From assembly GCA_963575745.1 (NCBI GenBank), contig CAUYUJ010000271.1:1-64000 (forward strand): a DNA stretch of 64,000 bases, written 5' to 3'. This stretch comes from Prorocentrum cordatum. Its lineage: Eukaryota. A model generated the notes under the pieces. It saw only the letters and a program-made list of their open reading frames with translations, made no database searches and was not told the origin of the DNA. The translations under genes and the position numbers were made by a program. Numbering within the stretch: position 1 is the stretch's first letter; every line of letters starts with the position of its first letter. This document shows, piece by piece, positions 1 through 48,636 of this stretch.

Positions 1-8
1 TACTACCC

Positions 9-75
<67 letters not shown>

Positions 76-105
76 GACTACGACTACGACTACTACTACT
101 ACTAC

Positions 106-172
<67 letters not shown>

Positions 173-240
173 CACTACTACCACTGCTACCACCACCACC
201 ACCACCACCACCGCCACCGCCACAACTGCTACCACTATAA
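1..240. repeat. (ACT)n microsatellite grading into (ACC)n
   Basis: Visible tactactac... tract. Confidence 0.95.
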
Positions 241-323
241 ACGCTACCGCTGCCGCCGCCGCTGCCACTGCCACCGCCACCGCCGCTGCAGCAGGGGGTG
301 GGGGGGGGTTTTCGCCGCTCGAC

Positions 324-767
324 CTAGTCGGAGTCGCTGCCCAGGACGTCCGACTCCGAGGCCTGCGCCTGGGCCCTCTCGGCCTTCCTCCCCCCGGGGC
401 GCGAAATGTCGGGGGCGCGCAGGGCCGGGCGCGACGGACAGAATGCGACCCCCCTTTCCCAGCCCCCCCCCAAAAAAAAAAAAAAAAAGGACTGACAAAC
501 GAACAAACAAACAAACAAAAACAATTCTGATTGGGGCGTTCGTCCTGTCCGCGGTGTCCCCCCCGTCGGCCCCCCCTTTCGCGCCTCCGATGCTCCTGGC
601 GCCGCTGGTACTCCGCGCTGCCCCTGCCGCGGGGGGCGCGGCGCGGCCGTTTCCACGGCCGCTGGGGCGCCCGAAAGCGGGGCGGGCGCGCGCGCGCACG
701 CACGCGCGCACACGCACACACACGCGCACGCACGCGCACGCACGCGCACACACGCGCACGCACACGC

Positions 768-804
<37 letters not shown>

Positions 805-1463
805 CACGCGCGCACGCGCGCACACGCGCACGCGCACACGCGCACGCGCACGCGTACACACACACACACACACGCACGCACGCACGCACGTGCGCACGCG
901 CGCGCACGCGCACGCACGACGCGCACGCCGACACGCACACAGCGCGCACGCACGCGCACACCAAACACAGCACGCCCAACACGCGCACACTCGCCACGCA
1001 CACACACACACACACACACACGCCATCGCGGAACGCACACACCGCACACGCACACGCACAGCACACACACAACACACGCACACACACACACACACACGCA
1101 CACGCACACGAACGCACGCACACACACAACACACACACACACGCACGCGCACAACGCACACACACACACACACGCACACACAACACACACACGCACACAC
1201 ACACCACGCGCACAACACACGCAACGCACACAAACGCACACAACACACCGCACGCACAACACACACACACGCACCACACACACACGCACGCACTCACACA
1301 CGCACACACACGCACACACCCACACACGCACCACACACACACACACGCACACACAACACACACACAACACACACGCAACGCGCACACACCACACACACAC
1401 AAACACACACACACCCACGCACACACACACACACGCAAACACACACGCACACACACACACCCG

Positions 1464-1505
<42 letters not shown>

Positions 1506-2128
1506 CACACACACACACACGCGCACACACACACGCACACACACGCACACACGCGCGCACGCGCGCGCTCGCACGGCGCCCCCCCGTTCCGGGCGCCCCG
1601 ATGTGGCGGCGGCGGCGGCTCCCCGCAGCCCTCGCACTTCACGGAGAAGTGCGAGCCGCACGCGCAGCGGACGGCGCCGCTGGCGCACGTCTCGCGCGCC
1701 CGCCGCACGGCCAGCTCGCCTCGGCGCGGCGCCCGCGCCGCCGCCCACGCCTGCTCCGCCGCGGGCGCGGCAGCCTCCAGGGCCGCGACCGCCGCCTCGG
1801 CCCCCCCGGCCCTCTTGGCAGCTCTTAGCCGCGCCGCTGCGGTCCTCCGTGCGGCCTTCAGCAGCGCCTCCGCCGAGGCCGCGCCGTCGGCGTCGGAGGC
1901 CGCAGCGGCGGCGGCCGCAGGGGGGGCGGCCCCGGCGGCGCCCTCGGCGGCGCCTTCGGCGGCGCCCGCGGGCGCGGCCCCGTCGGCGGGCTCAGCGCCC
2001 GCGGCGCCCGCGCTAGCCCGCTCGGCGCGATAGAGGGCGAGCTCCGCGGCGAGCTCGCCCTCTATCTCCCCCAGGCGCCCCAGCAGCGCCGCGCGCTCCT
2101 CGCGCAGCGCGCCCACGCGCTTCGCGGC
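324..2128 (-). CDS. 3' exons of an unknown spliced gene (predicted 2128-1619, 661-596, 383-324); Ala-rich coiled-coil plus Cys cluster
   Basis: Reads AAKRVGALREERAALLGRLGEIEGELAAELALYRAE...CACGSHFSVKCEGCGE / RPWKRPRRAPRGRGSAEYQRRQ / AERAQAQASESDVLGSDSD*. AG precedes each exon, GA donor at 595, exon lengths are multiples of 3. The donor after 1619 is uncertain. Confidence 0.55.
690..1570. repeat. (CA)n/(CGCA)n compound microsatellite (intronic)
   Basis: Visible tract. Confidence 0.95.
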
Positions 2129-2339
2129 CTCCCAGGGGGGGCGCAACGGCGCACACCAGAAACATAACACAAGATGTGCTCCGAAACTAAGCGAAACGAA
2201 ACTAACTAAACTAAACTCGTGCTCCCACTGCGGCGCGGGCCTCATTTTCGGATCGGTGTTTGGCCTCCGTCGTTCAGGATGGCGCTCTCGCCCCAGCGCG
2301 GGCCCCTTTCTCCCGCGCCCATCCGCCCGCCACCACCGC

Positions 2340-2746
2340 GCCGCACCACCGCCACCACCACCACCACCACCACCACCACCACCACCACCACCATCACAAC
2401 CACCACCAGCACCAGCACCACCACCACCACCACCACCAGCACGAGCACGAGCACCAGCACCAGCACCAGCACCAGCACCAGCACCACCACAACCACGCAC
2501 ACACGCACGCCCGCACGCACGCACGTGCACCACCACCCACCACGCACGCGCGCGCGGAGCCACAGGTCCGCTACGACACGCGTCCGCGGATAGAGAAAAT
2601 CAACGCCATGGTAAGGGATGGGAGGGAAGGGTAGGACGTCAGATATGACGCGAGCCCACCTAGCTTGTCCCCCTCCCCCTCCTCCTCCTCCTCCGCCTCC
2701 TCCTCCCCCTCCGCCTCCTGCTTCCTCCTTTTCCTCGCATTCATAT

Positions 2747-2786
<40 letters not shown>

Positions 2787-3155
2787 CCTCCTCCTCCTCC
2801 TCCGCCTCCTCCTCCTCCTCCTGCTCCGAATACCATCTTCCTCCTCTACCTCTCGCTCCTCCACCGCCTCTTCCTCCTCGCCCTCCTCCTCCTCCTGCTC
2901 CGCCTCCCGTTTCCCCCCTTTCCTCCTGTTCCCCTTCCTTTTCCTCATCCTTTTCCTGCTCCTCCTCCTCCTCCTCCACCTCCTCCTTTTCCTCCGCCTC
3001 CTCATCGTCATCCTCCTCCTCCTCCTCCTTGGCCTCCTCCTCATCGTCATCCTCCTCCTCCTCCTTTGCCTCCTGCTTCCCCCGTTCCTCGCATTCCTCT
3101 TCCTCCTCCTCCTCCTCCTCCTCCTCCTCCTCCTCCTCCTCCTCATCCCCCTCCT
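2340..3155. repeat. (ACC)n and (CCT)n microsatellites
   Basis: Tracts at ~2340-2500 and ~2670-3155. Confidence 0.9.
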
Positions 3156-4189
3156 CACGCGCAACGATGCTGAGCGGAACCCCTCTGTGGCTTCCAGAAA
3201 AGCCTGGGCGACCGAGAAGGGCCAGAGGAACAACCGCGGAAGGACGACTGGAACATCGAGCCCCTTCCGAATCCAACGCGTTCCTCATTTCAGCGTCTAG
3301 GCTGCGCGCACCCCTCAAGTAAAAATGCCGATTCACTGCGCGGCCCCGCCGATGCACGGCCCGGCGCGCCCCGGGAAAGGCTTGACAGCGCGCAAAAAAA
3401 AAAGAGTTACCCCCACGCTGTCGTCTCCGCTTCCCCCCCCCCGCCCCCCGTCTGCGCGGAGCCCAGTGGGGCGCCCTGCACGTTGCCAAGTAACGCCTTC
3501 TGGAATGAGCCCTGACATGTTTTCTTTGCTGGAAAGAACCCAGCGGGGGCTCCTGCAAGGGGCCAGCCCAATAGGGCCACCTGCGAGTGGAGCCCGTCTA
3601 TGCCTTCTGCGTGGACCCCGCCAAGGCCCGTGGATGGGGCCGACCATGGCCTCGTGCGAGGAGCCCAGGAAAGCCTGCTGCAAGGGGCCAAGGACGCCCC
3701 GTGCACAGCATGCCTCAAGGTCCTTGAAGGCTCCGAGGGTTCTAGCAACTTCGGCCCTAGATTCTTTGGGAAGCCGCGGGGGCAGCGAGGCCCTGGCGCC
3801 TGGGGCCCTGGGGGCCGTGGGAGCGCCCAGGCGCCCCGAGCCCTGGAAGACCCTGGCCTCTAGAGGGACATCGCGCGGGCCCGGGGGGCCGCGGGCCCGC
3901 GGGCGCCCGAGCCCGCGGGAGGAAAGGCGCGGGGCACATTTTTGGGGGAAAGGCGGGGGGCGCGCGGGCGAGCCAAGCAGCCAGGCTGCGCGGCCCTTCA
4001 CTGGGGCGGCATCGGGAAAAATGGCGCAGGGAGGGGGGCGGCCGCGTGCCTGGGGCAGGCGCCTGCCTGCCCCGTTCGACCCGAGCGGGGCGGGGCTTCG
4101 CCGCTGGGGCGCGCCTGGGGCAGGCACCTGCCTGCCCCGCCCCGTCCGCGCAAGGGGAACTTGCGGCCGCGAAGAAGGGGATAGAGGGG

Positions 4190-4203
4190 GATAGAGAGAG
4201 AGA

Positions 4204-4287
<84 letters not shown>

Positions 4288-4406
4288 AAGAAAAAGAGAA
4301 AGAGAAAGAGAAAGAGAAAGAGAAAGAGAAAGAGAAATATAAAGAGAAATAGAAATAGAAATAGAAAGAGAAAGAGAAAGAGAAAAAGAGAGAGAGAGAG
4401 AGAGAA

Positions 4407-4447
<41 letters not shown>

Positions 4448-4668
4448 GAGAGAAAGAGAGAAAGAGAGAAAGAGAGAAAGAGAGTAAGAGAGTAAGAGAG
4501 AAAGAGAGAAAGAGAGTAAGAGAGAAAGAGAGAAAGAGAGAAAGAGAGAAAGAGAGAAAGAGAGAAAGAGAGAAAGAGAGAAAGAGAGAAAGAGAGAAAG
4601 AGAGAAAGAGAGAAAGAGAGAGAGAAAGAGAAAGAGAAAGAGAAAGAGAAAGAGAAAGAGAAAGAGAA

Positions 4669-4702
<34 letters not shown>
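4190..4702. repeat. (AG)n/(AGAGAAAG)n polypurine tract
   Basis: Visible tract. Confidence 0.95.
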
Positions 4703-5363
4703 GGCAATAACACAACAGCAGTACCAGCGCAGGGCCTGCCAGCTTGAACGTGCAAACGGGGGCACGAATAGAGACGTCACCTGTGCCTGCAGAGGCCCCC
4801 CCGGATTTACAGACAAGGAAAAAACATACCGGGGCTGCAGACACGCCCCCGTCGCCTCGCCGCAGAGAAACGCTCTGCGCTCGGCCGAATTGGGGAGAAG
4901 GACTGGAGGCTCTCCAGGGGCGAGGGATAATGGTGAGAGGTGGGGGCATTGAGCGCTTCACGGGCTTCCGATAGAAGGGGGAGAGAGAAGGGGTGGAGAC
5001 ACCGAACGCTCCGTGTGCTACCCCGCTCGTCCTTAGGCAGGGCCCAAAGCTACTTGATCCTGCGCATCACAGCTTCATGTCGGCCCCCTTACTTCCCCTC
5101 CTCCTGCGATCCCCGACCCCGATCACTGGCTTTGGACCCACCGAGCATCTGGCAGACGCCGGCATTGCTGTCGACGCCCGCGCTCGTATCCTAAAGCTTC
5201 GCGACGCTCCAAAGCGCGTCATCCCCCTTCGGGGGCTGGTGCATATTGTTTATATGTTTTAGATTATTATGGCCGGCTCGTGAAACAGTGAAACAAGGGA
5301 CAGCGAGAAGCGATGGTGAAAAAAGGGCCAGGTGGCCAGGCGCACAAAGGACGAAAGTCTAGC

Positions 5364-8357
5364 TCAAGCGAACGCCCCGCCACTCGGGGGGGACGTTGCC
5401 GCCGAGCACGGCCAGGTCTCCGCGCTGCCACGGCGGGTGTCTGGGCTGCGGGGGGGCCGCCGGGGCGGGCGGCTCCGGCGCGCGCTGGGCCCGCTCCTCC
5501 ACGACGAGGTGATGGAAGCGCGACCGCGCGTTCCACATTGGGTCCCGTCGCGGGTCGGGGGCGCCAGGCGGCAGACCCAGGCGCTGGCCTGGGGCGGCGC
5601 GCAGCGCGCCGAGCGCCGAAGCCGCCGGAAGGGGGGCGGGGCTTCGGGGGGCGGCGCAGGGGCCGGCCGCCGCCGCTTCGCGGCGGACGCGCTGGCTGCC
5701 GTCCTGGCCTTCGTCCGCGCGCGCGCGCGGCGGGCGGCGCGCTCGGCCGCCAGGGCGAGCAGCCTGTCCCGCCGGGCGTAGCCGTCGCCCGCGGGGGCCC
5801 CTGGTGGGGCTGGGCCCACCAGCGCGAGGTCGGCCTGGCGCCTCCGCCGCAGCTCCCGCAGCGTCTCGCCCAGGTAGCTGAGCAGGCTGGCGGAGGGCCC
5901 GGCCAGGTAGGCCCACTGGTGGACGAGGACCGCCTGGAACACCGCATCCGCCAGGGACGTGTTCACGCCCCTGTGGGAACCGCCCCGACGGAGGTTGCGC
6001 CAGTGCCCGTCGACGGTTTGGGTGCCCCCCTTCCGCCACGTCCACTCGCCCAGCTGCCCGTCGGGGCCGCCCCACTGGCCCGCGCGCGGGTCCGCCTGCG
6101 CCACCGCCGCCGAGTCCTCGGGGTGGACGTGCACCAGCCGCATGGCCACGAACTCGCGCTCCACGCGGCCAGCCAGCTTCCGCGAGTGGCACACCGAGGT
6201 GTGGCACAGGCGCAAGTGGCGGTACTGGGCCGCCCACTCCTCCGAGCGGTCGCGCCAGCCCCGTCTCTCGGCGGCGCACCCGGCCAGGCACTCGCGAAAA
6301 GTTTCGCGGCGCCACACGCCTGGCCACAGGATGCTGGCGGTCACCGCGTCCTCCGCGGAAGGGGCTGGCGGGGCGTCGTGCGCCTCCCGCCAGTCCAAGC
6401 TCCGGTACGCCCTGGCGTCGTCCGTGTGGACGATCGCCCCGGGGCGGAGCAGGGGCGGGGCGTCCGTGCCGGGGCGGAGGATGAACTCGCGGATCTCCTC
6501 GTGGGACAGGGCGCCGCCGCCGCCCTGGCCCTGCCCCGAGGCGAACCGCGGGGGCAGCGCCTGGAGCACCAGCGGGCCCCCGTGGCGCTCGTGGGCCGCG
6601 ATGTACCTGTGCCACTCGCGGCCCCAGGCGCCGCCATCGCCCAACGCCCACCGCGCGCGGAAGCAGATCTCGTCGATCTCGACCTCCACACCAGGCCCCC
6701 CGAGCTACACGGTGCCGTTGCGCCAGGACTGGAAGTCGGCCACGGTGCACCGGGCGTCCTTGAGCCAGCCCGAGACGAGGCGCTTGTGGTCGAGCCAGCA
6801 ATCCAGCGCCAGCTCCTCGCTCGAGGGCTCCAAGCTCTTCGCCCACCGGCAAAGAAGCCCGGCATTCTGGCGCAGGGAATATTTCCCGCACCAGATCTCG
6901 GCGTCGAGCCCGACGGCGCGGGTGCCCTGGCACCGCCCGCACCGGTAGGTCGCCGTTTCGTGGCGCACGCGAACCTCCCGGCCCCCGATGTTCACGGCCT
7001 GCGGCCCTGCGCCGCGCCCCGCCCCCCGCGGGGCCTCAGCGCGGGCCGCGCGCGTGCCCGCCCGGACGCGCACGTCCTGCTGCGCCCCCGGCGCGCCGCA
7101 GTCGGGCGCGTCGCAGGCGGCCTTCTCGGGGAGGATGCCGCAGTCCTCCAGGACCTCCACGACGTTGCGGCCCTCCATGTCGGAAAGGACCTGCAGGCAC
7201 AAAGCCCGGGCGCGCAGCCCCGAACGCGCCAGGTGGCGATGGCGCACGCGCCCCTCGGCCGCCGGCCCGCCGTACGGCACCTTGTCCGCGTGCGGGCGGA
7301 TGAGCCGGCGGGGCTCGATGGACGCGCGGGCGGCCTCCACCGCCGCCCGGTGCTCGTCGGGCACGGCATCGGCCGGCTTGTCGAGCAGCGCGACCACCTC
7401 CAGGGGGATGGCATCGTCGGGGTGGACTTCGCCTTGGCCCTCGTCCAGCCCCTCGGCCTCCTCCCCCACGAGCGCTGCCCGCCGCTTCTGGGCCCCCCTC
7501 CAGCCGCCCTGGCCGCTGTGGCGGGGCAAGGCGGCGGCGGCCTCGCCCCACGCGGCAGCAATGTCGGCCAGGGCGTCGTCGCCGCTGTCCTCGTCGAGGC
7601 CGCCCGCCGGCCCCCCCGCCGCCGCCGCCTCGCGAGCGGACGGCCCGATCTCGAGGACGTCGTCCTCGCGACTGGCGCCTGTGCGCGCCGGCCGGTCCAG
7701 CGGCCTCCGCCCGCTCATGGCCCCGCGGGCTCGGCCCTTCTCGGCGGCGGCGAGGCCCCGGCGGAGGCGGCGCCGATGCGGCGGGGTTGCGGCCGCGGCG
7801 CCAGCCTTGGCCCTGGCTCTGGCCTTTGCCTCGGCCTTCGCCTTGGCCGTGGCCTTCGGCGCCGCCGCGCTCGGCGCCGCGCCCGGGCCGTCCGCGCCCA
7901 GGTCGTCTGCGGGGCTGAAGTCGCCGAAGACGTCGGCCATCGGATCGACCTCTGCCACGGCGGCGGCCGCCGCCGCCACGTCCACGGCCGACGGCCGGCC
8001 CTCCAGGCCATCCGCCGCCCCATCCTCCGTGGTTGCCTGTGGCGCGGGGTCGTCGGCCATGTCGACGGCCTCCCGCACCGCCAGCGGCAGCGGCAGGCTG
8101 TCGCTGTCGCTGGCCGCGGGCGCGGCGCCGGGCGGCGCGGCGGCAAAGTCCACGGCGGCAGCCGCGCAGCCGCGGTACATCAGCGCCCCGCAGGGCTCGC
8201 AGTGCTGCAGCCAGCCGCCCCTGGCCCTCTCGTGGCACTTGCCGCAGGCCTCCCTGGAAGAGGTCCGCACCGCGCGGAGCGGGCGCTGGCATGCTGGGCA
8301 GGCCAGCGAAGCCCCCGAGGCCGCTGGGCTCCCCCGGCCGCACTGATGCCCAGACAT
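5364..8357 (-). pseudogene. Merlin (IS1595/ISXO2-like) DDE transposase, intronless, one in-frame TAG at 6707-6705
   Basis: Track ORFs 6705..8546 and 5364..6689 are one frame: NGTV*LGGPGVEVEIDEICF. Motifs GGPGxxVEIDE, IVHTDDARAYRSL, HTSVCHS, GTQTVDGHWRNL. Upstream CDAPDC...YRCGRC Zn ribbon and an N-terminal Cys cluster (CPAC, CGKC, CEPC). First ATG at 8357. Confidence 0.88.
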
Positions 8358-8426
8358 GAGGCCCAGGATAGCAGCGCGCGAGGTCACCGAGAGCGCGAGC
8401 GGGGAGACGACCCCCGCCGCGCGAGC

Positions 8427-8448
8427 CCGGAGCCAAGATGGGCACGGA
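8427..8448 (-). other. Relict dinoflagellate spliced leader
   Basis: Minus strand TCCGTGCCCATCTTGGCTCCGG vs DinoSL DCCGTAGCCATTTTGGCTCAAG: 17/22 ungapped, sense to the transposase, 69 nt before its ATG. Confidence 0.7.
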
Positions 8449-8924
8449 AAAGCGATGGTGATGGCGATCGCCAAGTCGGCTGCGCAGTGCAAAGCAATGC
8501 CAACAACCCCGAGCAATGCTACGCAATGCAGAGCAATCAAACGCAATCACGAACACAGAGGCGCAAAACAGGCGCCTCGCAGCAGCGCGACGACACGCAA
8601 GGCGGCGCAGTCAAGTGAGTCCGAACGCGCGGGCGCGAGGGGCGCTTATTCTGGGGGAATCTAAGGCCCGCGCATGCCCCCAGCCTGGGCCTCTGCGCAG
8701 TTTTGGCCACGGCCTCGGGCCCGCGCAGAAGTCGAGAAGCCAGGCCTCGGACGGGGGCCCAGGTGCGGGCTCAGAGCTAGTAGGACGCCTGCGCGGTAGA
8801 CGGCGGCGGGCCTGGGGCAGGCCTGGGCAAGGGGCAAGCCAAAGGGCAGGCCCACGGGGGCCCACTGGCAAGGCCACGGTAGGCTTGGACGGGAAAGCCC
8901 TGCTGCAGGCCCCTGGGTGAGCCT

Positions 8925-8973
8925 AGAAGTAGTAGCAGTAGTAGCAGTAGTAGTGGTAGTGGTGCTAGTAGTT

Positions 8974-9040
<67 letters not shown>

Positions 9041-9086
9041 TAGTAGTAGCAATAGTAGTAGTAGTAGTAGTAGTAGTAGTAGCTGC

Positions 9087-9133
<47 letters not shown>

Positions 9134-9167
9134 CAGTAGTAGTAGTAGTTGTAGTAGTAGTAGTGGC

Positions 9168-9205
<38 letters not shown>

Positions 9206-9490
9206 CGGTAGTAGTAGCAGTAGAAGTACTAGTAGTAGTGGCGGCAGTGGTGGTAGAAGTAGTAGTGGTGGTAGTGGCAGGAGTAGTAGAAGTAGTAGTG
9301 GTAGTAGTGGCAGTAGTGGCGGCGGTGGTAGTAGTAGTAGTGGTGGCAGTGGCGGCGCAGTGGCAGTGGTAGTAGTAGTAGCAGCAGTCGCAGTGGTAGT
9401 AGTAGTGGCAGTAGTCGCAACAGCGGCGGCGGCAGTGTTAGTAGTGGTAGCGGGGGTGGCAGCCGCGGCATCAGTAGTAGCAGTAACAGC
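8925..9490. repeat. (GTA)n microsatellite degenerating to GTG/GCA
   Basis: Visible tract. Confidence 0.95.
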
Positions 9491-9953
9491 GGTCGTGGAA
9501 GCAGCAGGGGCGGCCGCTGCAGTGGCAAAAAGCGGCAGCGGAGGCGGACCTTGGTCAGAGTGGCGGTGGCGGCGGCGGTGGTCGTGCTCGCGGTGGCGGC
9601 GGTGGTGGCAGTGGCATGGCGCATTCGTGGATGCACTGGCGGTCGCAGCGGCAGCGGCGGCGGCAGCTGTGGGCCTGCGAGCCCTCGCGCAGCCCCAGGC
9701 GGGGGGCGCCCGCAGCAGCGGTACCCCCAGCAGCGCTGCCCCCAGCCATCCCGGGCTGGCTCGCGCGGGCGCGCCTTCTGTGGAGGCAGGGGTCGCCTCC
9801 ACGGGGGCCAGGGCCACAAAATGCAAGATATCGACGGGGCGATATAATCTTCTGGACTGTATGGCCTGACCGATAAGGCGTTAGGACAGAATCTGCACTT
9901 CACAGGATCAAATCCCAGGAGTACTTCACGCAGGTCTCAGTTGAAAAAACATT

Positions 9954-10200
9954 GAGCTAATCTCCTTGAAAAACTGCGGGCATTTTTTTGTCAGCCCGCA
10001 CTTCGAAGGAGGGCGGGCATTTTTTTTCCGGCCCGCAGAGCTAATCTCGTTGAAAAACTGCGGGCAGTTTTTTTCCTGCCCGCATTTCGATTGCCCAGAG
10101 GTGGCAGGGGGGCGCGGGCACTTTTTTTCCAGCCCACAGAGCTAAACTCCTTGAAAACTGCGGGCATTTTTTTTCGCGCCCGCAGTTCGATTGCCCTGAG
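9954..10200. repeat. Three tandem units with GCGGGC-T-run-GCCCGC hairpins
   Basis: gagctaa(t/a)ctc(c/g)ttgaaaa(a)ctgcgggca at 9954, 10038, 10139. Confidence 0.85.
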
Positions 10201-10389
10201 GGGATTGGGGCGTCTGCGCCCCTGTGGCCTCCATAGAGCCAGGGCCTTGGCGGATTTGCGGCTTGCGAGGAGGCCCTGGGGCGATGGCGCCAGGGCGCTT
10301 AGGGCCTCATGGCCTTCACTCCTGGGAATTTGCCGGGAGCCTGTTTCTCGGAATCTGCTGGTAATGTAATGAAATGACACAATTCAGTG

Positions 10390-10536
10390 GAATGGAGCAG
10401 GCGAAATATGCCCAACCCTCCCTGATAAAATAGTGGTAATGTAGTGAAATGGGGCATCCTCATTCTCACAATCTGACCTTCTTGGGTTCAATTCCTGGCG
10501 GGGCCTGAGCAGCTTGCTTGGGAGGAAGTGTTCTAG
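10390..10536 (+). other. tRNA-like repeat (Pol III A/B box), copy 1
   Basis: TAGTGAAATGG at 10442-10452 and GGTTCAATTCC at 10485-10495; no complete cloverleaf; homologous copy near 11.3 kb. Confidence 0.45.
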
Positions 10537-11303
10537 TATTGCCATTGTCATTGCAGGGGAAATCACTGTAGAAAGGATTATGTGCAAGTAAGGCCGTTTA
10601 CATGTGTTTAGAGCTTTGCATACTGAGGAATTCTGAAATTTAGAATTGCCTTCGCCCCCATTGCGAAAGCCACCGCCACTGCTGCCGCCGCGGCCGCCAA
10701 CCCTGCCGCTGCCTCTGGTATTGCCAACCAGGCCCACCACCGCCGCCGCTGCTGCGCCGAAAGCCACCACCCCCGCCGCACCCCCCCCCAGCGCGACCCA
10801 GCCACCCACCGCCACTATCCAGCAAGCAAGCAAACGCGCCTGCCCCAGGCACGCCGCAGCCAATACCATCACCGCGGCCACCGCCCCCCCCCGCCCCCCG
10901 CCCAGCATTGCCCCACCACTATCGTTGTCCCCGTCGCTGCTGTTGCCGCCCCCACCAAAGGCACCGCCGCCCACACCACGCTCACTCCCACTGCCACTGG
11001 CTGCCCAGCCGCCACCGCCCCGGCCGCTGCTTGCTTGACGCACCCAACGCCGCGGCTGCCAAGACCTTTTCAGCCCCCACAGCGGCCGCGCTCGCCGCCG
11101 CCGCTGTTGTCGCCACTGCCACCGCCCATGCAAAGTCACTACCAACACTACGACGACCACAGCCGCCGCCCCCCCCCCACTTCCCCCCCTCACGGTTGCG
11201 CTCACCGCTGCCGCCGCACTGCCACCGCTACCCCCGCCACCACCACCACCACAACGACGACGACGACCACCACCACCACTACTAGAATAGGGGACGTGCC
11301 ATA

Positions 11304-11446
11304 GAATAGGGCAACGATATGCCCTCCTTCCTGTGCATGTGCTGGAATTGTAGTAAAATGGGGAACACCCCTTCCCACAATCTGACTTTCTTGGGTTCAA
11401 TTCCTAATGGTGCCTTTGGGGCCTGCTTGGGGGTAGGGTTTCCAGC
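11304..11446 (+). other. tRNA-like repeat (Pol III A/B box), copy 2
   Basis: TAGTAAAATGG...cacaatctgactttcttGGGTTCAATTCC, colinear with copy 1 including flanks. Confidence 0.45.
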
Positions 11447-11949
11447 GAGCTGCGGATTGCCCGTGCACCTCCCGCCCCCTGGGGGAAACCGGAGCTTCGT
11501 GGGGGCTGGGCTGGCTCTGGTGGGGCGGGGCCTGCAGGGGCTGGGCGCGGCCCTGAGGCAGCTGCGGGGCCAGCCACGCATCTGGAAGCGGAAGCGGGGG
11601 CAACGCAAACAAAAGACAAAAAAACATCGAACAGCCGGGCTTGTAAGACCACGCCCGGCTATAATTTGCCCTGGCTCTTGCACGAAGGAGCTGCGAAGGA
11701 CAGGAGGCCTCCGCTTTCGTCTTTCAAGAGGACTTTGCGAAGAACCAGAAAGAAAGTGGAGGAGGAGGACGAGGACGACGACGACGACGAGGACAACAAC
11801 GACGAAGACGACGACCACGACAGTCGTCGGCGGCGCCACGCCGCGCAGCTCTCCGCCCGCGGTCGCCCGGCGGCGCCGCCGCGGGGGGGGAGAGCAGTCC
11901 GGGGAGGCTCGGGAGAGGGGAGGTCACGGCCCAGGGGAGCCAGAGGGGG

Positions 11950-12911
11950 CCCAGGTGGACGAACCACAACGACGAAAATAAACGAGTTCGAGCTCTAGAA
12001 CACATTTTTGCAAGAGAATAAACGGTTCCGTAGCCCAGAGGGGGCTGGCTGCCCTGGGAGGCTCGGGAGGGGGCCCGGGGCAGGGGGATCCTGGGAGGCT
12101 CGGGGGAGGAGGGTGGTCCAGGGACGACGAACCACGAACGAACCACGAAAATAAAGGCTTCGGTGGCCCAGGGACTGCCCTGGGAAGCTCGGTGGAAGGC
12201 TCGGGGCAGGGGGATCCTGGGAGGTTCGGGGGAGGGGCGGGATCCAGGAACGACGAACCACGAACGAACCACGAAAATAAAGGCTTCGGCGGCCCAGGGG
12301 GGCGCCACGAAAATAAAGGCTTTGGCGGCCCAGGGGGGCTGCCCTGGGAGGCCCTGGGAGGCTCGGGGGAGCTGCCCTGGGAGGCTCGGGGGGAAGCTCA
12401 GCGGCCTAGGAAGGCTGCTCTGGGAGGCTCGGGAGAGCTGCCTTGGGAAGCTCGGGAGGGGGCTCCGGGCAGGGGGATCCGGGAGAGGAGAGGGGTCCAG
12501 GGACGGCGAACCACGAACGAACCAGGAAAATAAAGGCTTCGGCGGCCCAGGGGGGCTGCCCTGGGAAGCTCGGTGGGAGGCTCGGGGCAGGGGGATCCTG
12601 GGAGGCTCGGGAGAGGAGGGGGGTCCAGGGACGACGAACCACGAACGAACCACGAAAATACAAGCTTCGGCGGCCCAGGGGGGCCTCGGGGGGAAGCTCG
12701 GGGCAGGGGGATCCTGGGAGGCTCGGGAGAGAGGCGGGTGTCCAGGGACGACGAACCACGATCGAACCACGAAAATAAAGGCTTCGGCGGCCCAGGGGGG
12801 CCGGGGAGGCTCGGGGGAGGAGGGGGTCCAGGGACGACGAACCACGAACAAACCACGAAAATAAAGAGGTCCGAACTCTAGAGCACAGCTGTACAAGAGA
12901 ATAAACAATTC
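11950..12911. repeat. Variable-length tandem satellite (~60-130 bp) with GACGACGAACCACGAACGAACCACGAAAATAAAGGCTTCGG core
   Basis: About 7 core copies separated by related ctgggaggctcgg linkers; similar ctctaga...caagagaataaac motifs at both ends. Confidence 0.9.
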
Positions 12912-14120
12912 AACGTTCAAAATTTCTTCCCTTCCTGCCTCAAAATTACGTTTCAATTCCAATCAATTTGCAAAATTCTGTTTCTCTCGCATGTGTTCCC
13001 ATTCGCAAATAAAGAAACGAATTTTTACATACGTATTTCAGTTAATCACAATTTCGCGGTGGCGGCGGGAAAAAATACTAAGGTTGATTCAATATTTCTT
13101 CTTCCGGATAATGTCAAATCCATGTATTGATGGTATGTTGTCAAGTTGTACGTATCCAAAAAAACATTTCAAAATTATATGCGTACATGTGTGTTCAATG
13201 CTTTCATGAATCAAAATTTGTTTGGTCAATGTTTTGTGTTGCATGCGTTTTTGCAGTCTACCGACGCGCATCCAGCCAAAACCTTTATGTATAGTAAGTT
13301 TGTTTGTGGGCGTCGAGTAATCGTTTGTGAGACATTTCGGGGGGGGGAATCTGAGAAAATGATTTTGTTTTAAGAAGTTCTACGCACCTAATCTCTATGT
13401 AATGTATTTTCCCCGGTGGGCTTATTCATTAAAATTAATGATACAGATTTCTGCTGTAAAACATATACACGGCCATGAGCACCACGTATCAAAAATCATC
13501 ACAAAAAGATATATGATAATGATATTTGAGACCCGTATTGGATCCCACGGGGAATTTATTCTGAAATATTTGTTGCGTCAACGGTAATTTCAACAAATTT
13601 GCAATAATGACAATAATGAAACAAGCCCGGTATATTCCGCCGCCGACGTACATAACGTCTGGATGGGTATCTCACACGGTTGCCCAAAAAAACGCAGCCT
13701 CACAATCTTGCGTACGTCCACTTCTATGCTCCATCGTGATAAATACCATAAAATCATCCGGAACGGATTCCCGAATTCGTTTTTCCCCTCCACGCATAAT
13801 TGTGTGGCACTGCTTCTCCCGATGCTCACGGTTCGGACCGCACATACATTCAGAATTGTTTTCAGTTTGTATTTCAGAAATACGCATTATATTGAACGAC
13901 ATGAGATGATTTACCAGCGCTGCCTGCTGCAAGTTCGATGCCCGTTCCGTTTAGGGGGATATTATTTAAAATAATTTTGCGCAGACAGCTCACGCCGCAT
14001 ATGGGCGAAATAATAATTGCGTAAAGCCCTTCCTGGTCTTCATCACCGATCCCGAGCTTCCCCCATGGCACGCTAAAAAGTCTGAAATTAGACCAGCACG
14101 TCTCATTAAATTGTGTTACA

Positions 14121-31470: not shown

Positions 31471-33673
31471 TCAGGGCTCGGGAGAACAGCGGGCCTCTGG
31501 CCGAGGTGCCGCCCACGCTTCGGTGGCCCGAAGCCCGGCGTGGTCCGTTTCTGCAGTGCTCTGTTCCTGACAGGAGCACGCCCCGTTCTCTGCGCCCGTT
31601 CTCTGACTGACTAGCGGTCGAATGTGTGCTTCGATTCTTGAGTCCACGATTGGTGCGAGCTTTCGTGCCCACCACACCCGGGCGTGCTGCTGCAAAGCGC
31701 TGCGAATTAGGTGCAAGAACCCAAAAATTGGGCAGGCCAGCAATCTGAGGCACTGGTTCATCTTCTTCAGATCGTCATCCATCCATGAATAAATCGTTAG
31801 CAGCCACCCAGTCAACGCAATCGAGACTACGTACACTGTGCACGTTTTGATTTGGCCGTTGAGGTATAATGAAGTCGCAACGTAGATGTGCAAACACACG
31901 TCAGCCATATGGCTGACGATGTCCATGCCCAACGAAATAACACTGCTAGTTTCGACTTTCTTCCTACCGATCATAAACCCACGGGCCTCTTCTTTGCGTT
32001 CCTCGTCCTCCTCTGGGTCCTGGGCCCACCACAAGCAAATGCAATTTACCATGTTTGAGTCGTAAAGTAAAATCCGCCACCGTGCCCCCTCGCACGTTGA
32101 GGCGCATTAGGACACCGAGGGCTTCCTGGTAGAATTGCTGCGTTCCTCCAAATGACCCCCTCCTTTCGAATCGCAAAATGTTGCGTGCTCCGCCCCCCCT
32201 TGCCGAAACCACAATCGCCAAGAAAAAACAATGGATTCGCGATCCCGGGTTTCCAAGATGGCCCGAGCCAGAAGCCCCAGGCCTCCAATATGGCTCAAGA
32301 TATCTCCACGACGGCCCAAGATGGCCCCAACGCGGCCTCAAACAGCATCAAATCGGCCCAAGATGCAAGATAAGGGGATCCCCCAGAGGGTCTGAAGATA
32401 CACAAGTAATCGCTTTTACAGGAAACGTAATTTCGGCATTATCGTCGTTTCGGCCCAAGAAGTATCCAAGACGGCCCAGAAAGGCCTCCAGAAGGACCAA
32501 AGACGGCATTCGTCGGCCCTTCGACGGTCAAAGTCGGCGCCAAGATGGCTCCGCGACGGCCCCCAGACGCACCCCATACGGCCAACAGGACCCCAAGACG
32601 GCCCAAGGGAGCACCAAGACGGCCTAAGAGATCCCCAAGACGGCCAAAGACGGCCCGGGAACGACCCCAAGGGACCCCAAAGCATGCCCCGCAGGAGTCC
32701 AAGACAGCCTCAAGACGCCCCAGATGTGGTCCATGAGAGCTCCTCAGAAAGTGAAGACGACAAATGTCACGTGTGATGGCCTTCCTCCCCCTCCTCGTGC
32801 TCCTCCTCCTCCTCCTCCTCTTCCTCCTCCTCCTCCTCCTAATCGCCATCATCGAGGTGTCACACGCGACGGCCTCCCGTGCCTTCTCGAACATCTACCA
32901 CCCAAAATGCCGGGCTGGCACGTTGGCGGGACTCGCCGCAGGCAGCTGGATAGTGATGCTGAATGCTAGGAAAACGTCAAGGGAATAATGGTATCTCGCG
33001 GCGATTGTGGCAAATGACGCTGAAATCGTATATGTCCACGTCAACACTCCGATAACAACACGGATGCACCGCCGGTGCCCATGGCATCGCCCCAGCAGGT
33101 CGTTAATCACGAGGGTGCTCAGCAGGAGAATGAAGCAATGCTTCGAATATATCATGTCACCGCAGTAGCGGCTGCCACCGACTTCCACACTAAGGACCTC
33201 CAGCAACGAGCCCCAGAAATCGTTGCGAAAATCTAGCAACTCCGCGTGGGTGCCCATGTCCTCAATGCCTCTCTTGTTCAACCTTTGCTGGCACTGCTCC
33301 CACCCGCTGGCGTCCGGAACCACTGTGAGGAGGCCACATGCGGCCCTGCCAGAGAGGAGCGCAGCAAAAACAAGCGCTGCCTTGCAGTAAACTAGCTTGT
33401 GCTTGCAGAGGAACATTGCGAGCAAAGCCATCATCGGCAATGGGACCACCGTCACGTCCCAGAACCACTGGGTGACCACCAGCGGCTCTTGCAGCCAGGA
33501 CGCGGTTAAATCCTGGAGCTTCTGCGGGTAGTCGTGGTGATGAGTGCTGATCCACTCCCGATGCAGCGGGTTGGGCAACTGGGCGCTACCCAGACCCCCG
33601 GCAATCCTCGACCCTTCCCTGAGAGTCGGCTGTTCATCCCGAGTCACTCTCTGACGGACAGGGGCCCCAGCGG
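31471..33673 (-). CDS. Sphingomyelin/IPC-synthase-like PAP2 domain continuing into a second TM region (XK N-half-like); interrupted by an 878-bp insertion, possibly a pseudogene
   Basis: GRAACGLLTVVPD, YCGDMIYSKH (cf. CGDxxxSGH) and RYHYSLDVFLA (cf. HYxxDV). Removing 32073-32950 gives in-frame FLAFSIT-ILLYDSNMVNCICLWW...MADVCLHIYVATSLYLNG. Confidence 0.8.
32073..32950 (+). mobile_element. Non-autonomous CCAAGA-rich element, Helitron/Helentron-like ends
   Basis: A|TCCGCCACCGTGCC...GGCACGTTGGCGGGACTCGCCGCAGGCAGCTGGA|T; 5' end is an inverted repeat of a subterminal 3' motif; precise removal restores the host ORF. Confidence 0.8.
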
Positions 33674-36035
33674 CTTCCAGGGGAGTTTTGTGAATCGCAA
33701 GACGAGGAGGGGGAGGAGGACAAGGGGGAGCAGGACGATGGAAGGAGGACGAGGGGGAAGAGGACGCCCTCCCCCTCCTCCTCCTCCTCGTCCTCCTACT
33801 CCTCCTCCTCCGCGTCCTCCTCCCCTCTGTCTATCCTCACTGGTACCATCGCCGGCGCTTCGCGCGCGCGAAGGTTCTAGAGCGGGCGGGGGGGAACCAC
33901 CCACAGCGGCACCTGGTGATCGCGTGGGCAATCTGTGAGCACTGCCCTTGCGATTGTTGCGCTGGTTCTCCGACGCGGGGCGGATTTTTGCGCGGCGGTC
34001 GTACGTTTTGTCAAGAAATTCTGGGGAATTGACGTGGCGCAACCGTCCTGGTGGCGGTTCCCAGCCATTGCGATCAGTGCCTGACTGGGGCAGCGCTCGT
34101 GGGCGCAGTGGTGTGGGGGGGGAGGGCGTTTTGCGCGGTTCAACCTGTGCACGTCGCGCGGTCTTTCTGCGAAGCTGCCGTGCCGACCTTCGGATCCATG
34201 CGGGGGCGTTCCAGTGGCAGTGGCGGGACGTACTCCGAGCAGTTCTCTTCCACGCACCACAAGTTCTCTGTTCAAAATAAGAACAGACTCCACCACTGTC
34301 TCGAGCTCGAGGTTCACGCCCCCCCTGGAATAATTACATTGACATGCACTTCCGCCTTATCGTTCATTCTCCATGTGAAATCGCACCATCTCAGCCAGGC
34401 CGGTATCGAACCCACCGTCATCCCTGTCATACCATGCGCGCACTCGTCTATCTTGAAACAGATTCTCCAGTAGTCCTTTGTAGCAGATGCTATAAAGTCC
34501 AAACGCGAGCGTGCCGAAGTCATATCAAACGCATTCATTTCGCAAGCGTTTCAACATACACATGTTCAACACCATGGGGCTTCCAATGGACATTTTGCAA
34601 GTTCCTACTCGCGCGCTTGATGCTGGTTTTTAGCAATGCCGCACACAACTCACATCCTCATCTCATCACGCGGTGAATGTGCGTTGATCTGGCATGCGCC
34701 CAGTGCTTGAAAACGTAGCGAATAGCTCCATGCGGGCCACACGCGCGCGCAGCCACGCGCGCGTGCCGAAACCCTTCTGGAAACAATGGTGTTCGAAACA
34801 TCTCAAATAATAAGCTCTTCGACAACATGTGAAGCCATATCGTACAACAGGGAACATGCATTTTCTTTTGAAGATCTGCGCGTGCGCACCTTCACATCAC
34901 CCCCACCAGCGCCATCGCACCACCACCGACATCTTCATCGTCAAGCGCCGTCATGACTACCCTCATCGCCACAAACACTCTCATCACCGTCATATGGAGA
35001 TCAGCACCGTCTTCGTCGTTACCAACATCGGCGCCGCCATAGGCCTTGCCGTCGTCGTCATCATCGCCACCGCCATCGTTATTATCGTTGCCACCGTTGT
35101 AGACGTCATCGTGACATGCACCCGACCGAGACACGATCCGCACGGAAGCGCCCGCGCGCCACCACGGCCTTTGAAGCGTGCTGCGGATGGCCCATCGGTA
35201 AGTGCCATCGCGGCCGCATCAGGCGTACCAAGCCACCCAGTCGATCTGCGCACAAGCGTGCGCGCGCCACTGTGGGTAGGTGGGATGCGTGCACGAGCAG
35301 TGGGCTCGACAACTTCAAGACGGTCGAAGGTAAATCTCCTTTTCGGAAAAAACAATAAGCCTTACCTCCGTCTCCCCCCGAAAGACTTTCTGGGCATTTG
35401 TACTTTAAATAAGGTTCGGCCCCGTCGTTCGTTTTGCAAATGACATCCAATGACATCCAACCGTTCTAAACGACCAGGTTTCGACACCCCCCCGTCTCTG
35501 GAAAATAATGCCGTACGCGTGCAGCCGTTCACCTCAAACAACCATTTCGCAATAATCCCTGGCATACTAAAGCTAGCAAATCCACACGCGCGCGCACAAG
35601 CCGAGACCATACCGGGCATGATAATTGGGCAATCCCTTCGACACTTGACATCCACAATCATCTTGCACAATTTCTGCCCGCGCGCCATTGCTGCAATCAT
35701 GGGGGAACCACATGACTGTAGCAACGTGCTGAAACCGCAAGCTGGTTCCAAACTCACTTTCTCATCCCACCACGCGGCGCGCTGCGTTGATCTAGCATGC
35801 GCCCACTGCAGAACTCCGCATCACATGGCACCGTGCGGGCCACGTGCGCGCAGCGCCACGCCCGCGTCCAACTCCTTGCAGGAAGCACTGGCCCTCGAAG
35901 CGTTTCGGTAAACGGGCGTAAGCCACGCTGACGAAGCCATGTGGCGAGCGCCGTGTCCTGCAGGCTGCGCGGAGCGAGCCACTTTGTGAAAGCCACCCAC
36001 GGGCGGCCACGGGCGTGCTCCAGGCAAGCCCTTGC

Positions 36036-36238
36036 TAGGGGAACAAAAAGTGACATAAACATAAAAACTCGGAGGTCCGCGCGAATTTCTCGGATCGGCG
36101 CTGGGGCCCCCCGGCGGGGCCTCCGGCGCCGCCCCCGCCGCGCTCCGCGCGCCAGGGCGGGGGGGGGGCCAGGCGCCGATCCGAGAGATCCGCGCGGACC
36201 TCCGAGCTTTTGTGTTTATGTCGCCGTTTGTTCCCCTA
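36036..36238. mobile_element. MITE with long TIRs and TA ends (Tc1/mariner-type TSD)
   Basis: taggggaacaaa..gacataaaca..ctcggaggtccgcgcga ... tccgcgcggacctccgag..tgtttatgtc..tttgttccccta. Confidence 0.85.

Positions 36239-48429: not shown

Positions 48430-48636
<207 letters not shown>

What the first reader, a model, noticed from the sequence alone, without database searches (positions are those of the whole stretch)
5308..8461. A Merlin DNA-transposase gene apparently moved as a trans-spliced mRNA retrocopy
Seen: the transposase ORF is intronless over ~3 kb in an intron-rich window. A 17/22 match to the full dinoflagellate SL lies at 8448-8427, 69 nt before the ATG. An exact 12-bp direct repeat AAGCGATGGTGA lies 1 nt beyond the SL (8450-8461) and 44 nt past the stop (5308-5319). 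I found no TIRs. Known: Merlin elements normally have TIRs and 8-9-bp TSDs, and dinoflagellates recycle SL-capped mRNAs into the genome. Inference: a class II transposase was expressed, trans-spliced, reverse transcribed and inserted, leaving an immobile TIR-less gene, a route to domestication or to a trans-acting source for MITEs. Caveat: there is no poly(A) inside the repeat; an A-rich tract (minus strand, 5270-5244) lies just outside it and is an alternative 3' end.
Basis: partly seen in the sequence, partly recalled or inferred. Interest (0 to 1): 0.85.

Follow-up and report, generated by a model that had tools for sequence, protein, structure and literature searches.

The report
Dead retrocopy of a dinoflagellate transposase gene
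A broken, intron-free copy of an IS1595/Merlin-like transposase gene in a Prorocentrum-like dinoflagellate probably arrived as a reverse-transcribed, spliced-leader-capped mRNA, which is an ordinary way for genes to move in these algae but an unusual one for a DNA-transposon gene.

Summary
The sequence facts hold. There is a 17/22 DinoSL-like site at 8448..8427, 69 nt before the ATG. An exact 12-mer lies at 8450-8461 and 5308-5319. I found no TIRs and no poly(A). Two points were missed or overstated. The "ORF" is broken by an in-frame TAG (6705-6707, Q in most relatives) and by a frameshift near 5598-5610. "Merlin" rests on remote homology only: Pfam PF12762 E=0.15, NCBIfam IS1595 in 31 of 59 relatives, and an integrase/transposase-like predicted fold. 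A neighbouring multi-exon gene is 97% identical to a Prorocentrum cordatum protein, so spliced-leader biology applies.

Best reading (about 0.55): a processed, SL-tagged retrocopy flanked by a 12-bp target-site duplication, now a pseudogene. Chance is an unlikely cause. An SL-like site this good within 500 nt upstream arose in 13 of 20,000 simulations. A 12-mer repeat abutting it arose in 1 of 3,000.

Three things weaken this reading. There is no poly(A). The SL is 23% diverged while the duplication is perfect. At least one diverged copy in public contigs stays homologous 33 nt or more beyond the 12-mer. No genome was held, so neither a parent copy nor an empty site could be sought. This is a new member of a known kind, of moderate interest.

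The parts
8450..8461 (-). 5' copy of the exact 12-mer (sense TCACCATCGCTT); proposed target-site duplication
8449..8449 (-). single unexplained T between the 12-mer and the SL-like site
8427..8448 (-). DinoSL-like 22-mer, 17/22; the 5 differences are A>G, G>C, T>C, A>C, A>G
8358..8426 (-). 69-nt GC-rich leader (GC 0.77) between the SL-like site and the first ATG
6708..8357 (-). first 550 codons: Cys-rich start, low-complexity Ala/Gly-rich stretch, then a conserved region with CxxC...CxxC upstream of the catalytic core (ESM lead to Zn_ribbon_IS1595, 0.89-0.90)
6705..6707 (-). in-frame TAG (codon 551) where 10 of 13 aligned relatives have Q, 2 have R and 1 has E
5790..6704 (-). DDE/D catalytic core (VEIDE D562, HTDD D646, TVDGHW D783); predicted RNase H-like integrase/transposase fold
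5598..5610 (-). zone of a frameshift relative to the closest relative P0162
   Evidence: read
5359..5597 (-). C-terminal tail conserved with P0162 but in a different frame from the core; ends at TAG 5361..5359
5320..5358 (-). short 3' untranslated stretch ending in TTTTT; no poly(A)
5308..5319 (-). 3' copy of the exact 12-mer
8462..8547 (.). 5' flank: degenerate GCAAT-type short repeats (GC 0.55); public contigs of other copies diverge only at 8547
5242..5270 (-).

Best explanation
This is a processed pseudogene. An mRNA of an IS1595/Merlin-like DDE-transposase family gene was trans-spliced to the dinoflagellate spliced leader. It was then reverse transcribed and inserted into a repeat-rich intergenic spot of a Prorocentrum cordatum-like genome. 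The insertion used a staggered break that was filled in to give a 12-bp target-site duplication. The inserted unit (8449..5320, 3130 nt) therefore begins with the SL, carries a 69-nt leader and an intron-free coding region, and ends after a ~40-nt 3' UTR without a poly(A) tail. It has since acquired a nonsense codon and a frameshift and is dead.

Shown: the anatomy, the homology, the breaks and the host group. Inferred: the RNA intermediate, the reading of the 12-mers as a TSD, and the order of events. Later DNA-level duplication of the whole locus is inferred from contigs that share the 5' flank.
For: Host: a neighbouring multi-exon gene is 97% identical to a named P. cordatum protein. Dinoflagellates cap mRNAs with DinoSL, and more than 20% of Symbiodinium genes carry relict DinoSLs upstream, best conserved at -50 to -100 (PMC5585692, passages).

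SL-like site: 17/22 on the sense strand, ending 69 nt before the ATG. It arose by chance in 500 nt upstream in 13 of 20,000 simulations. With reward +1 and penalty -1 its local score is 12, above the 9-mer-equivalent floor of Song et al. (my arithmetic's method).

12-mer: exact, present only twice in 64 kb. It brackets SL-to-3'UTR to within 1 nt. Chance gave this in 1 of 3,000 simulations.

No similarity between the flanks and the unit ends beyond the repeat, and no TIRs.

Intron-free collinear homology to relatives over about 3 kb. In contrast, the relative in L001 is interrupted by two intron-like gaps, one of them GT..AG, and the neighbouring gene has long introns.

Composition steps at the proposed ends: unit 0.74-0.80 GC against 0.52-0.57 in the 3' UTR and immediate flanks.

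Protein identity: 194 relatives at E<=1e-3. NCBIfam IS1595 was hit by 31 of 59 relatives, best 6e-7. PF12762 was hit by 8 of 59. 28 of 30 ESM neighbours are IS1595 clusters. The AF2 core has pLDDT 88, and its 29 best structural rows (Z 8.8-6.1) are all integrases or DDE transposases.
Against: There is no poly(A) and no A run of 4 or more anywhere in the unit; it ends in T5.

The SL-like site has 5 of 22 changes while the two 12-mers are identical. Under one neutral rate, the joint probability of these two facts peaks at about 0.005. Either the SL was already decayed when copied, or it mutated faster (4 of 5 changes are AT>GC), or the two features do not date from one event.

Window-wide, the SL-like site alone is not significant: 0.18 expected. 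Its 3' end (..CTCCGG against ..CTCAAG) would fail the stricter published filter that a hit must reach within 2 nt of the DinoSL 3' end (PMC9651163, passages).

Other copies share the flank. In run X3 a contig about 87% alike runs from 7973 through the ATG, the SL and the 12-mer to 8494. Five contigs of X1 and one of X4 diverge only at 8547 (only 32 of 178 pieces were displayed).

Intron-free ORFs are also normal for autonomous transposons, and many relatives are long uninterrupted ORFs on metagenome contigs.

No parent copy and no empty site were seen. None of the 8 joints listed bridges 5307 to 8462.
Confidence: 0.55

Rival explanations
1. The SL relict is real but older than this locus. An ancestor of this copy was retroposed once. 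The present copy, with some flank, arrived by DNA-level segmental or dispersed duplication. The 12-mer is then either carried along with the duplicated block or is a coincidence.
For: A diverged copy shares 33 nt or more beyond the 12-mer, and several contigs diverge only at 8547. 64.8% of P. cordatum genes are dispersed duplicates (PMC10666404, passages). This reading resolves the mismatch between a decayed SL and perfect 12-mers if the 12-mers come from a later event.
Against: A 12-mer abutting the SL to within 1 nt and closing 44 nt after the stop arose by chance in 1 of 3,000 simulations. A duplicated block that includes both 12-mers is the same first event as in the best explanation, followed by duplication.
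Confidence: 0.2
2. This is a decayed DNA-level copy of a Merlin/IS1595-type transposon or transposase-derived gene. Its ends have eroded. The SL-like site and the 12-mer are both chance matches in GC-rich, repeat-rich DNA.
For: The SL-like site is not significant window-wide (0.18 expected). There is no poly(A). Merlin-related ORFs without TIRs or TSDs are already described in Symbiodinium (PMC8101967, passages). Other copies share the flank.
Against: The joint placement is very unlikely by chance: 13 of 20,000 for the SL-like site upstream times 1 of 3,000 for the abutting repeat. The base rate of relict DinoSLs upstream of dinoflagellate genes is high, above 20%. No TIRs were found, and 12 bp is not the 8-9 bp Merlin TSD.
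Confidence: 0.2
3. This is a live gene. The TAG and the frameshift are assembly errors or are corrected at the RNA level, so the locus encodes a working transposase-derived protein of about 1000 aa.
For: The catalytic D, D, D positions are intact in this copy. Only two lesions occur in 3 kb. Nuclear mRNA editing is reported in dinoflagellates (PMC10666404, Background passage).
Against: Long open frames mean little at 77% GC; the antisense strand has an 1101-codon ORF. Near-identical public contigs cover 6458-6894, but the displayed tables do not show position 6707 either way, so this is untested rather than supported.
Confidence: 0.05

Closest known systems
DinoSL-tagged retrogenes and retrocopies of dinoflagellates (Slamovits & Keeling 2008, recalled; Song et al. 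2017, PMC5585692; review PMC6050394)
   Same: A relict spliced leader lies on the sense strand 50-100 nt upstream of the start codon. The copy is intron-free. It sits in a dinoflagellate genome among same-strand genes.
   Different: The cargo is a DDE transposase-family gene. I found no such case in print; the searches were made, and those papers were seen as passages only. The relict is more decayed than the perfect 12-bp flanking repeat. The papers I read describe no TSD or poly(A) rule and state that the mechanism is unknown (PMC6050394, section 7). This copy is dead, whereas the literature stresses high retrogene survival.
Merlin superfamily / bacterial IS1595 family transposases (Feschotte 2004, as summarised in PMC8101967)
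   Same: Remote sequence affinity to DDE_Tnp_IS1595 / NF033547. The motif order is VE-D-E ... HTD..A.AY ... H..V.H ... GTQ.VDG.W. The predicted catalytic core has an RNase H-like fold. TIR-less Merlin-related ORFs are already reported in Symbiodinium.
   Different: The match is below the curated cutoffs. The protein is about 1000 aa with a 550-aa N-terminal extension. The third catalytic position is D rather than E in this family. A possible IS1595-type zinc ribbon is present, which Merlin and IS1016 lack. There are no TIRs. The flanking repeat is 12 bp, not 8-9 bp.
LINE-mediated processed pseudogenes of animals (target-primed reverse transcription; recalled textbook knowledge)
   Same: An intron-free mRNA copy starts at the mRNA 5' end and is flanked by a direct repeat of variable length in the 7-20 bp range. 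It was dead on or soon after arrival.
   Different: There is no poly(A) tail, and the repeat does not begin A-rich. The reverse transcriptase responsible in dinoflagellates is unknown; the review favours LTR elements, which would give 4-6 bp duplications.

Membership tests
Dinoflagellate SL-tagged retrocopy | DinoSL or its relict on the sense strand within 500 bp upstream of the ORF (Song et al. 2017 criterion: at least the score of an exact 9-mer) | tested here: met
   16/21 (17/22) at 8448..8427, 69 nt before the ATG; local +1/-1 score 12; chance 13 of 20,000 (criterion)
Dinoflagellate SL-tagged retrocopy | Stricter filter: the hit reaches within 5 nt of the DinoSL 5' end and within 2 nt of its 3' end (Benites et al. 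2022, after Stephens et al. 2020) | tested here: not met
   The last three positions read CGG against AAG, so a local alignment stops 3 nt short of the 3' end
Dinoflagellate SL-tagged retrocopy | A parent gene with introns and fewer DinoSLs in the same genome | not testable with these tools
   No genome is held. Only a 52%-identical relative from a metagenome contig (L001) shows intron-like gaps
Dinoflagellate SL-tagged retrocopy | Family transcripts carry a trans-spliced DinoSL | not testable with these tools
   No RNA run was available to lay
Processed pseudogene made by target-primed reverse transcription | Target-site duplication bracketing the whole cDNA | tested here: met
   Exact 12-mer at 8450-8461 and 5308-5319, unique pair in the window; chance 1 of 3,000
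Processed pseudogene made by target-primed reverse transcription | 3' poly(A) tail inside the duplication | tested here: not met
   No A run of 4 or more in 3130 nt; the unit ends in T5
Merlin / IS1595 superfamily | DDE_Tnp_IS1595 domain (the inclusion rule used in PMC8101967) | tested here: inconclusive
   Window protein: PF12762 E=0.15 (cutoff 27 bits, score 12.5) and NF033547 E=0.12. Relatives: 8 of 59 (Pfam, best 0.014) and 31 of 59 (NCBIfam, best 6e-7). 0 of 25 relatives at E<=0.01 in Pfam. ESM: 28 of 30 neighbours are IS1595, score 0.92, 169 shared features
Merlin / IS1595 superfamily | Catalytic DDE triad | tested here: inconclusive
   D562 and D783 are kept in 90% or more of 14 sequences and D646 in all 14. 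They fall on strand 1, just after strand 4 and on a helix of the model. The third residue is D, and no direct alignment to a bona fide Merlin E was made
Merlin / IS1595 superfamily | Terminal inverted repeats (24-462 bp, terminal GG) | tested here: not met
   No arm pair at or near the unit ends
Merlin / IS1595 superfamily | 8-9 bp target-site duplication | tested here: not met
   The only flanking repeat is 12 bp
RNase H-like DDE transposase / retroviral integrase fold | Catalytic core superimposes on solved integrase or transposase cores | tested here: met
   AF2 pLDDT 88.2, pTM 0.84. The 29 best VIA-align rows (Z 8.8-6.1, 125-159 aligned residues) are all integrases or DDE transposases. Foldseek alone gave no match at E<=0.001

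The most novel reading that the evidence does not exclude
In dinoflagellates the IS1595/Merlin-like transposase family spreads largely as SL-capped mRNA retrocopies rather than by cut-and-paste. This would explain why most 'Merlin-related' ORFs reported in Symbiodinium lack TIRs and TSDs. This locus would also preserve the footprint of the still-unknown dinoflagellate retroposition machinery: a 12-bp staggered-break duplication with no poly(A). That footprint points away from LTR-integrase-type insertion and from poly(A)-primed LINE insertion.
Probability: 0.2. Interest if true: 0.65.

Novelty: new member of a known kind. Interest (0 to 1): 0.4.

Why it matters
If the reading holds, a class II transposase gene has been moved by the class I (RNA) route in a group where mRNA recycling is rampant. 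That offers a simple explanation for the TIR-less Merlin-like genes already noted in dinoflagellates. Reviews say the enzyme and mode of dinoflagellate retroposition are unknown. A locus with a sharp 12-bp duplication, an SL at one end and no poly(A) at the other is a concrete footprint that a genome-wide survey could test. For this locus itself nothing functional follows, because the copy is broken.

Tried and rejected
- Whole-genome search: no genome is held for this window, so paralog ends, a parent copy and an empty site could not be sought directly.
- Related DNA: the metagenome scan gave 1 locus (L001) out of 591 or more pattern matches. The viral-contig scan confirmed 0 of 122 pattern matches. 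The genome-contig scan confirmed 0 of 599.
- L001 has no DinoSL-like site of 14/21 or better on either strand.
- Sequencing runs: no RNA holder was listed, so expression and SL-primed transcripts were not examined.
- Contigs laid: none of the 8 joints listed bridges the unit as an empty site would. Only 32 of 178 pieces and part of the difference tables were displayed. I therefore could not see whether other copies carry the TAG or the frameshift.
- TIR search over 1-5400 against 8351-13000 found only microsatellite matches and a dispersed 19-nt motif far from the unit ends.
- Rfam: 0 matches at E<=0.1 in 4000-10500.
- Foldseek against the PDB: 0 matches at E<=0.001.
- Pfam on the two ORF halves: only sub-threshold zinc-ribbon-type hits on the N-terminal half.
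- The idea that the 3' flank is a second degenerate unit (a tandem array) is rejected. The best local alignments between the flanks and the unit ends score 14 and 11, with no extended similarity.
- The A/T-rich tract at 5270..5242 as a decayed poly(A) is not favoured. It lies outside the 12-mer and no matching repeat follows it.
- Earlier findings of this scan: nothing by place, sequence or words.
- Literature: I found no report of a DinoSL-tagged transposase retrocopy. Searches were 'Merlin + dinoflagellate + transposase' (5 papers) and 'DinoSL + transposase' (3 papers). I read passages only, and no supplements.
Full report
**What is at the coordinates.** Read on the minus strand, the region runs in this order:
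- TCACCATCGCTT (8461..8450)
- a single T (8449)
- TCCGTGCCCATCTTGGCTCCGG (8448..8427)
- a 69-nt GC-rich leader
- ATG at 8357
- a 997-codon frame ending at TGA 5366..5364
- 44 nt
- TCACCATCGCTT again (5319..5308)

The 12-mer occurs only at these two places in the 64-kb window and never on the other strand. With mismatches the similarity extends to 18 of 22 (5298-5319 against 8440-8461). The 22-mer matches the dinoflagellate spliced leader DCCGTAGCCATTTTGGCTCAAG at 17 of 22 positions. The leader sequence is quoted in PMC5585692, PMC12014239 and PMC6050394 (passages). The five differences are A>G, G>C, T>C, A>C and A>G. I found no inverted repeats at or near the ends. The unit has no A run of 4 or more on its sense strand and ends in TTTTT.

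The frame is not intact.
- Codon 551 is an in-frame TAG (6707..6705). It sits five codons before the first catalytic motif. In an alignment with 13 relatives, that column is Q in 10, R in 2 and E in 1, and Q in the closest relative P0162. This fits a nonsense change of a Gln codon.
- tblastn with P0162 (747 aa, 74-77% identical over the core) aligns the body in one frame (7469..5433). It aligns the last ~80 residues (…LGLPPGAPDP…GDLxVLGGxxPPEWRG) in another frame (HSP 5895..5374 in frame -2, of which only the part from about 5600 to 5374 aligns well, ending at TAG 5361..5359).
- Reading the DNA against that alignment puts the frame change at about 5598-5610.

Long open frames carry little weight here. 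The unit is 74-80% GC, and the antisense strand has an 1101-codon ORF. The copy is best called a pseudogene, unless both lesions are assembly errors, which I could not check.

**Which organism.** No genome is held for the window. A neighbouring gene for a sphingomyelin-synthase-like protein (Pfam PAP2_C) matches a protein that NCBI names 'unnamed protein product [Prorocentrum cordatum]' at 97% identity. Its pieces lie on the minus strand between 50931 and 31967, so it has several long introns. The window therefore comes from P. cordatum or a close relative. This is a dinoflagellate with a GC-rich genome, and spliced-leader trans-splicing applies (PMC10666404, passages). The 'intron-rich window' statement holds for that gene.

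**What the protein is.** Pfam finds nothing above threshold. The only relevant hit is DDE_Tnp_IS1595 at E=0.15, over the HTDD motif. An exhaustive phmmer search gave these numbers:

| E-value cut | relatives found |
|---|---|
| <=1e-3 | 194 |
| <=1e-10 | 98 |
| <=1e-30 | 23 |

All ten relatives I looked up are unnamed or 'hypothetical' metagenome proteins. A profile search found named members only in Symbiodinium genomes, labelled 'timm16' or 'unnamed protein product'. The family-level evidence is as follows.
- None of 25 relatives reached E<=0.01 for PF12762.
- Scanning 59 family members one by one, IS1595 is the only recurrent family. NCBIfam NF033547 was hit by 31 of 59 (best 6e-7). PF12762 was hit by 8 of 59 (best 0.014).
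- ESM-Atlas neighbours of the core are IS1595 clusters in 28 of 30 hits (best 0.92).
- The region upstream of the core (CxxC…CxxC) has leads to Zn_ribbon_IS1595 at 0.89-0.90.
- An AlphaFold model of the core (305 aa, 59-row alignment) has pLDDT 88.2.
- Foldseek found nothing at E<=0.001. In the exhaustive structural comparison, however, the 29 best rows (Z 8.8 to 6.1) are all retroviral or retrotransposon integrases or DDE transposases.
- The conserved acidic residues lie on strand 1, just after strand 4 and on a helix, as in that fold. They are D562 in VEIDE, D646 in HTDD and D783 in TVDGHW.

I accept 'DDE transposase of IS1595/Merlin affinity'. I do not accept 'Merlin element'. The match is below curated cutoffs, the third residue is D, a zinc ribbon that Merlin lacks may be present, there are no TIRs, and the flanking repeat is 12 bp rather than 8-9 bp. 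The Merlin features are taken from PMC8101967 (passages). That paper already reports Merlin-related ORFs in Symbiodinium, most without TIRs or TSDs. It proposes domestication and does not mention spliced leaders or introns (0 occurrences of 'spliced' or 'intron').

**Is the SL-plus-repeat anatomy more than chance?**
- Window-wide, the SL-like site is unremarkable. 0.18 sites of 16/21 or better are expected per 64 kb on both strands (300 simulations; 0.27 from 30), and 1 was observed.
- Its place is what counts. A site this good within 500 nt upstream on the sense strand arose in 13 of 20,000 simulations with local composition.
- It lies in the -50 to -100 zone where relict DinoSLs are best conserved in Symbiodinium, where more than 20% of genes have one.
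- An exact repeat of 12 nt or more between the 40 nt just upstream of the site and the 400 nt after the stop arose in 1 of 3,000 simulations, and in 4 of 600 for 300 x 400 nt.
- The flanks show no other similarity to the unit's ends.
- GC drops from 0.74-0.80 inside the unit to 0.52-0.57 in the 3' UTR and immediate flanks.

Two independent chance events in exactly the arrangement expected of a capped-mRNA insertion are very unlikely. This is my main reason for keeping the retrocopy reading.

**Introns.** The one related DNA locus I could fetch is L001, a 9.3-kb metagenome contig whose product is 52% identical. The homologous gene there is interrupted three times:
- a 275-bp MITE-like insertion with 38-nt inverted ends and a TATGG duplication (5211-5485);
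- a gap of about 320 nt bounded by a repeated GTGGCCAC;
- a 246-nt GT..AG gap.

Intron-bearing family members therefore exist. L001 is from another organism, and dinoflagellates gain introns through introner elements (cited in PMC10666404). Many relatives are uninterrupted ORFs of 700-1150 aa. Intron absence is thus consistent with retroposition but does not prove it.

**What speaks against a simple story.**
1. There is no poly(A).
2. The SL-like site has changed at 5 of 22 positions while 24 duplication sites have not changed at all. Under one neutral rate, the joint probability peaks at about 0.005. The leader may have been decayed already in the template. It may have mutated faster (4 of 5 changes are AT>GC, inside a 77% GC unit). 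Or the two features may come from different events.
3. By the stricter published filter the relict fails, because its last three bases differ.
4. Public contigs show other copies. In run X1 (a single labelled organism) near-identical pieces at depth about 15 coexist with a collinear copy about 87% alike at depth 30 (6865-8220). In run X3 one diverged contig runs from 7973 through the ATG, the SL and the 12-mer to 8494. Five contigs of X1 and one of X4 diverge only at 8547, inside a GCAAT-type repeat. At least some copies therefore share the 5' flank, which independent retropositions would not do.

The simplest reconciliation is retroposition once, followed by DNA-level duplication of the locus. 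P. cordatum has 64.8% dispersed duplicates. A larger repeat unit cannot be excluded. Near-identical contigs in three marine or unlabelled metagenome runs span the 5' junction (X3: 8416-8572, no differing letters and one 1-nt gap) and the 3' 12-mer (X3: 5145-5326; X4: 5167-5326). None shows an empty site. Only 32 of 178 pieces were displayed.

**Mechanism, as far as it can be stated.**
- Shown: the anatomy, the host group, the protein family, and the two lesions.
- Inferred: a family mRNA was trans-spliced, reverse transcribed and inserted at a staggered break whose fill-in produced the 12-bp duplication. The copy lacked or lost a poly(A) tail. It then decayed and was probably duplicated with its flanks.

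Reviews state that the enzyme behind dinoflagellate retroposition is unknown and favour LTR elements (PMC6050394, section 7 read in full). A 12-bp duplication fits a LINE-type staggered nick better than an integrase, which gives 4-6 bp (recalled). The missing poly(A) fits neither classical route.

**Comparison and novelty.** The closest known kind is the DinoSL-tagged retrogene or retrocopy. This is one more member with an unusual cargo. In the library I found no report of a DNA-transposase gene copied this way. The searches were made; I read passages only and did not open supplements, and the S3/S4 tables of PMC8101967 may list related Symbiodinium sequences. The claim of a route to domestication or a MITE-mobilising source is not supported at this locus, because the copy is broken.

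**Verdict.**

| Reading | Confidence |
|---|---|
| Processed, SL-tagged retrocopy with a 12-bp TSD, now a pseudogene | 0.55 |
| Real SL relict but arrival by DNA duplication | 0.20 |
| Chance features on a decayed DNA copy | 0.20 |
| Live gene with assembly or editing artefacts | 0.05 |

Interest is 0.4. It is a tidy, testable example rather than a surprise in a lineage where mRNA recycling is pervasive. It has some added value as a possible footprint of the unknown insertion mechanism and as an explanation for TIR-less Merlin-like genes.

Noticed in passing
window 31967-50931 (minus strand): A multi-exon sphingomyelin-synthase-like gene (Pfam PAP2_C) is 97% identical to a named Prorocentrum cordatum protein. 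Its 6 tblastn pieces are spread over about 19 kb, so its introns reach several kb.
   Followed up: partly
window 31474-32106 (minus strand): An open frame has a Pfam XK-related hit (E 4e-7) just downstream of the PAP2_C exons. It may be part of the same gene model or a neighbour.
   Followed up: no
window 4044-4062, 4106-4125, 8805-8822, 10836-10854: A short GC-rich, hairpin-prone motif (core GCCTGGGGCAGGC) recurs in both orientations around the unit. One pair is a perfect 19-nt inverted match (E 8e-5 in that search). It is far from the unit ends and looks like a dispersed motif, not TIRs.
   Followed up: partly
window 1-237, 709-1566, 2668-3156, 4183-4702, 8924-9415, 12049-12866: Dense microsatellites and minisatellites surround the unit: (TAC)n, (CA)n, (TCCTCC)n, (AGAGAGAG)n, (TAG)n and 86-126-nt tandem units. 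The (TAC)n at 41-237 and the (TAG)n array at 9125-9317 form an inverted simple-repeat pair.
   Followed up: no
window 5313-8618 (plus strand): An 1101-codon antisense ORF runs across the whole unit. It is a by-product of 77% GC and shows that ORF length is no evidence of coding here.
   Followed up: yes
L001 5211-5485: A 275-bp MITE-like insertion with nested palindromes, 38-nt terminal inverted repeats (89% complementary) and a TATGG duplication sits inside an exon of the related gene. Removing it restores the reading frame.
   Followed up: partly
L001 1434-2956: An array of about 12 copies of a 120-bp tandem repeat lies upstream of the related gene.
   Followed up: no
window 55088-56602 (plus strand): Open frames have Pfam collagen-triple-helix repeat hits (E about 1e-7). 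These are probably Gly-rich, GC-driven low complexity.
   Followed up: no
window 10013-10201: A 100-nt unit is duplicated in tandem (87% match) and contains T7 runs, in otherwise GC-rich DNA.
   Followed up: no
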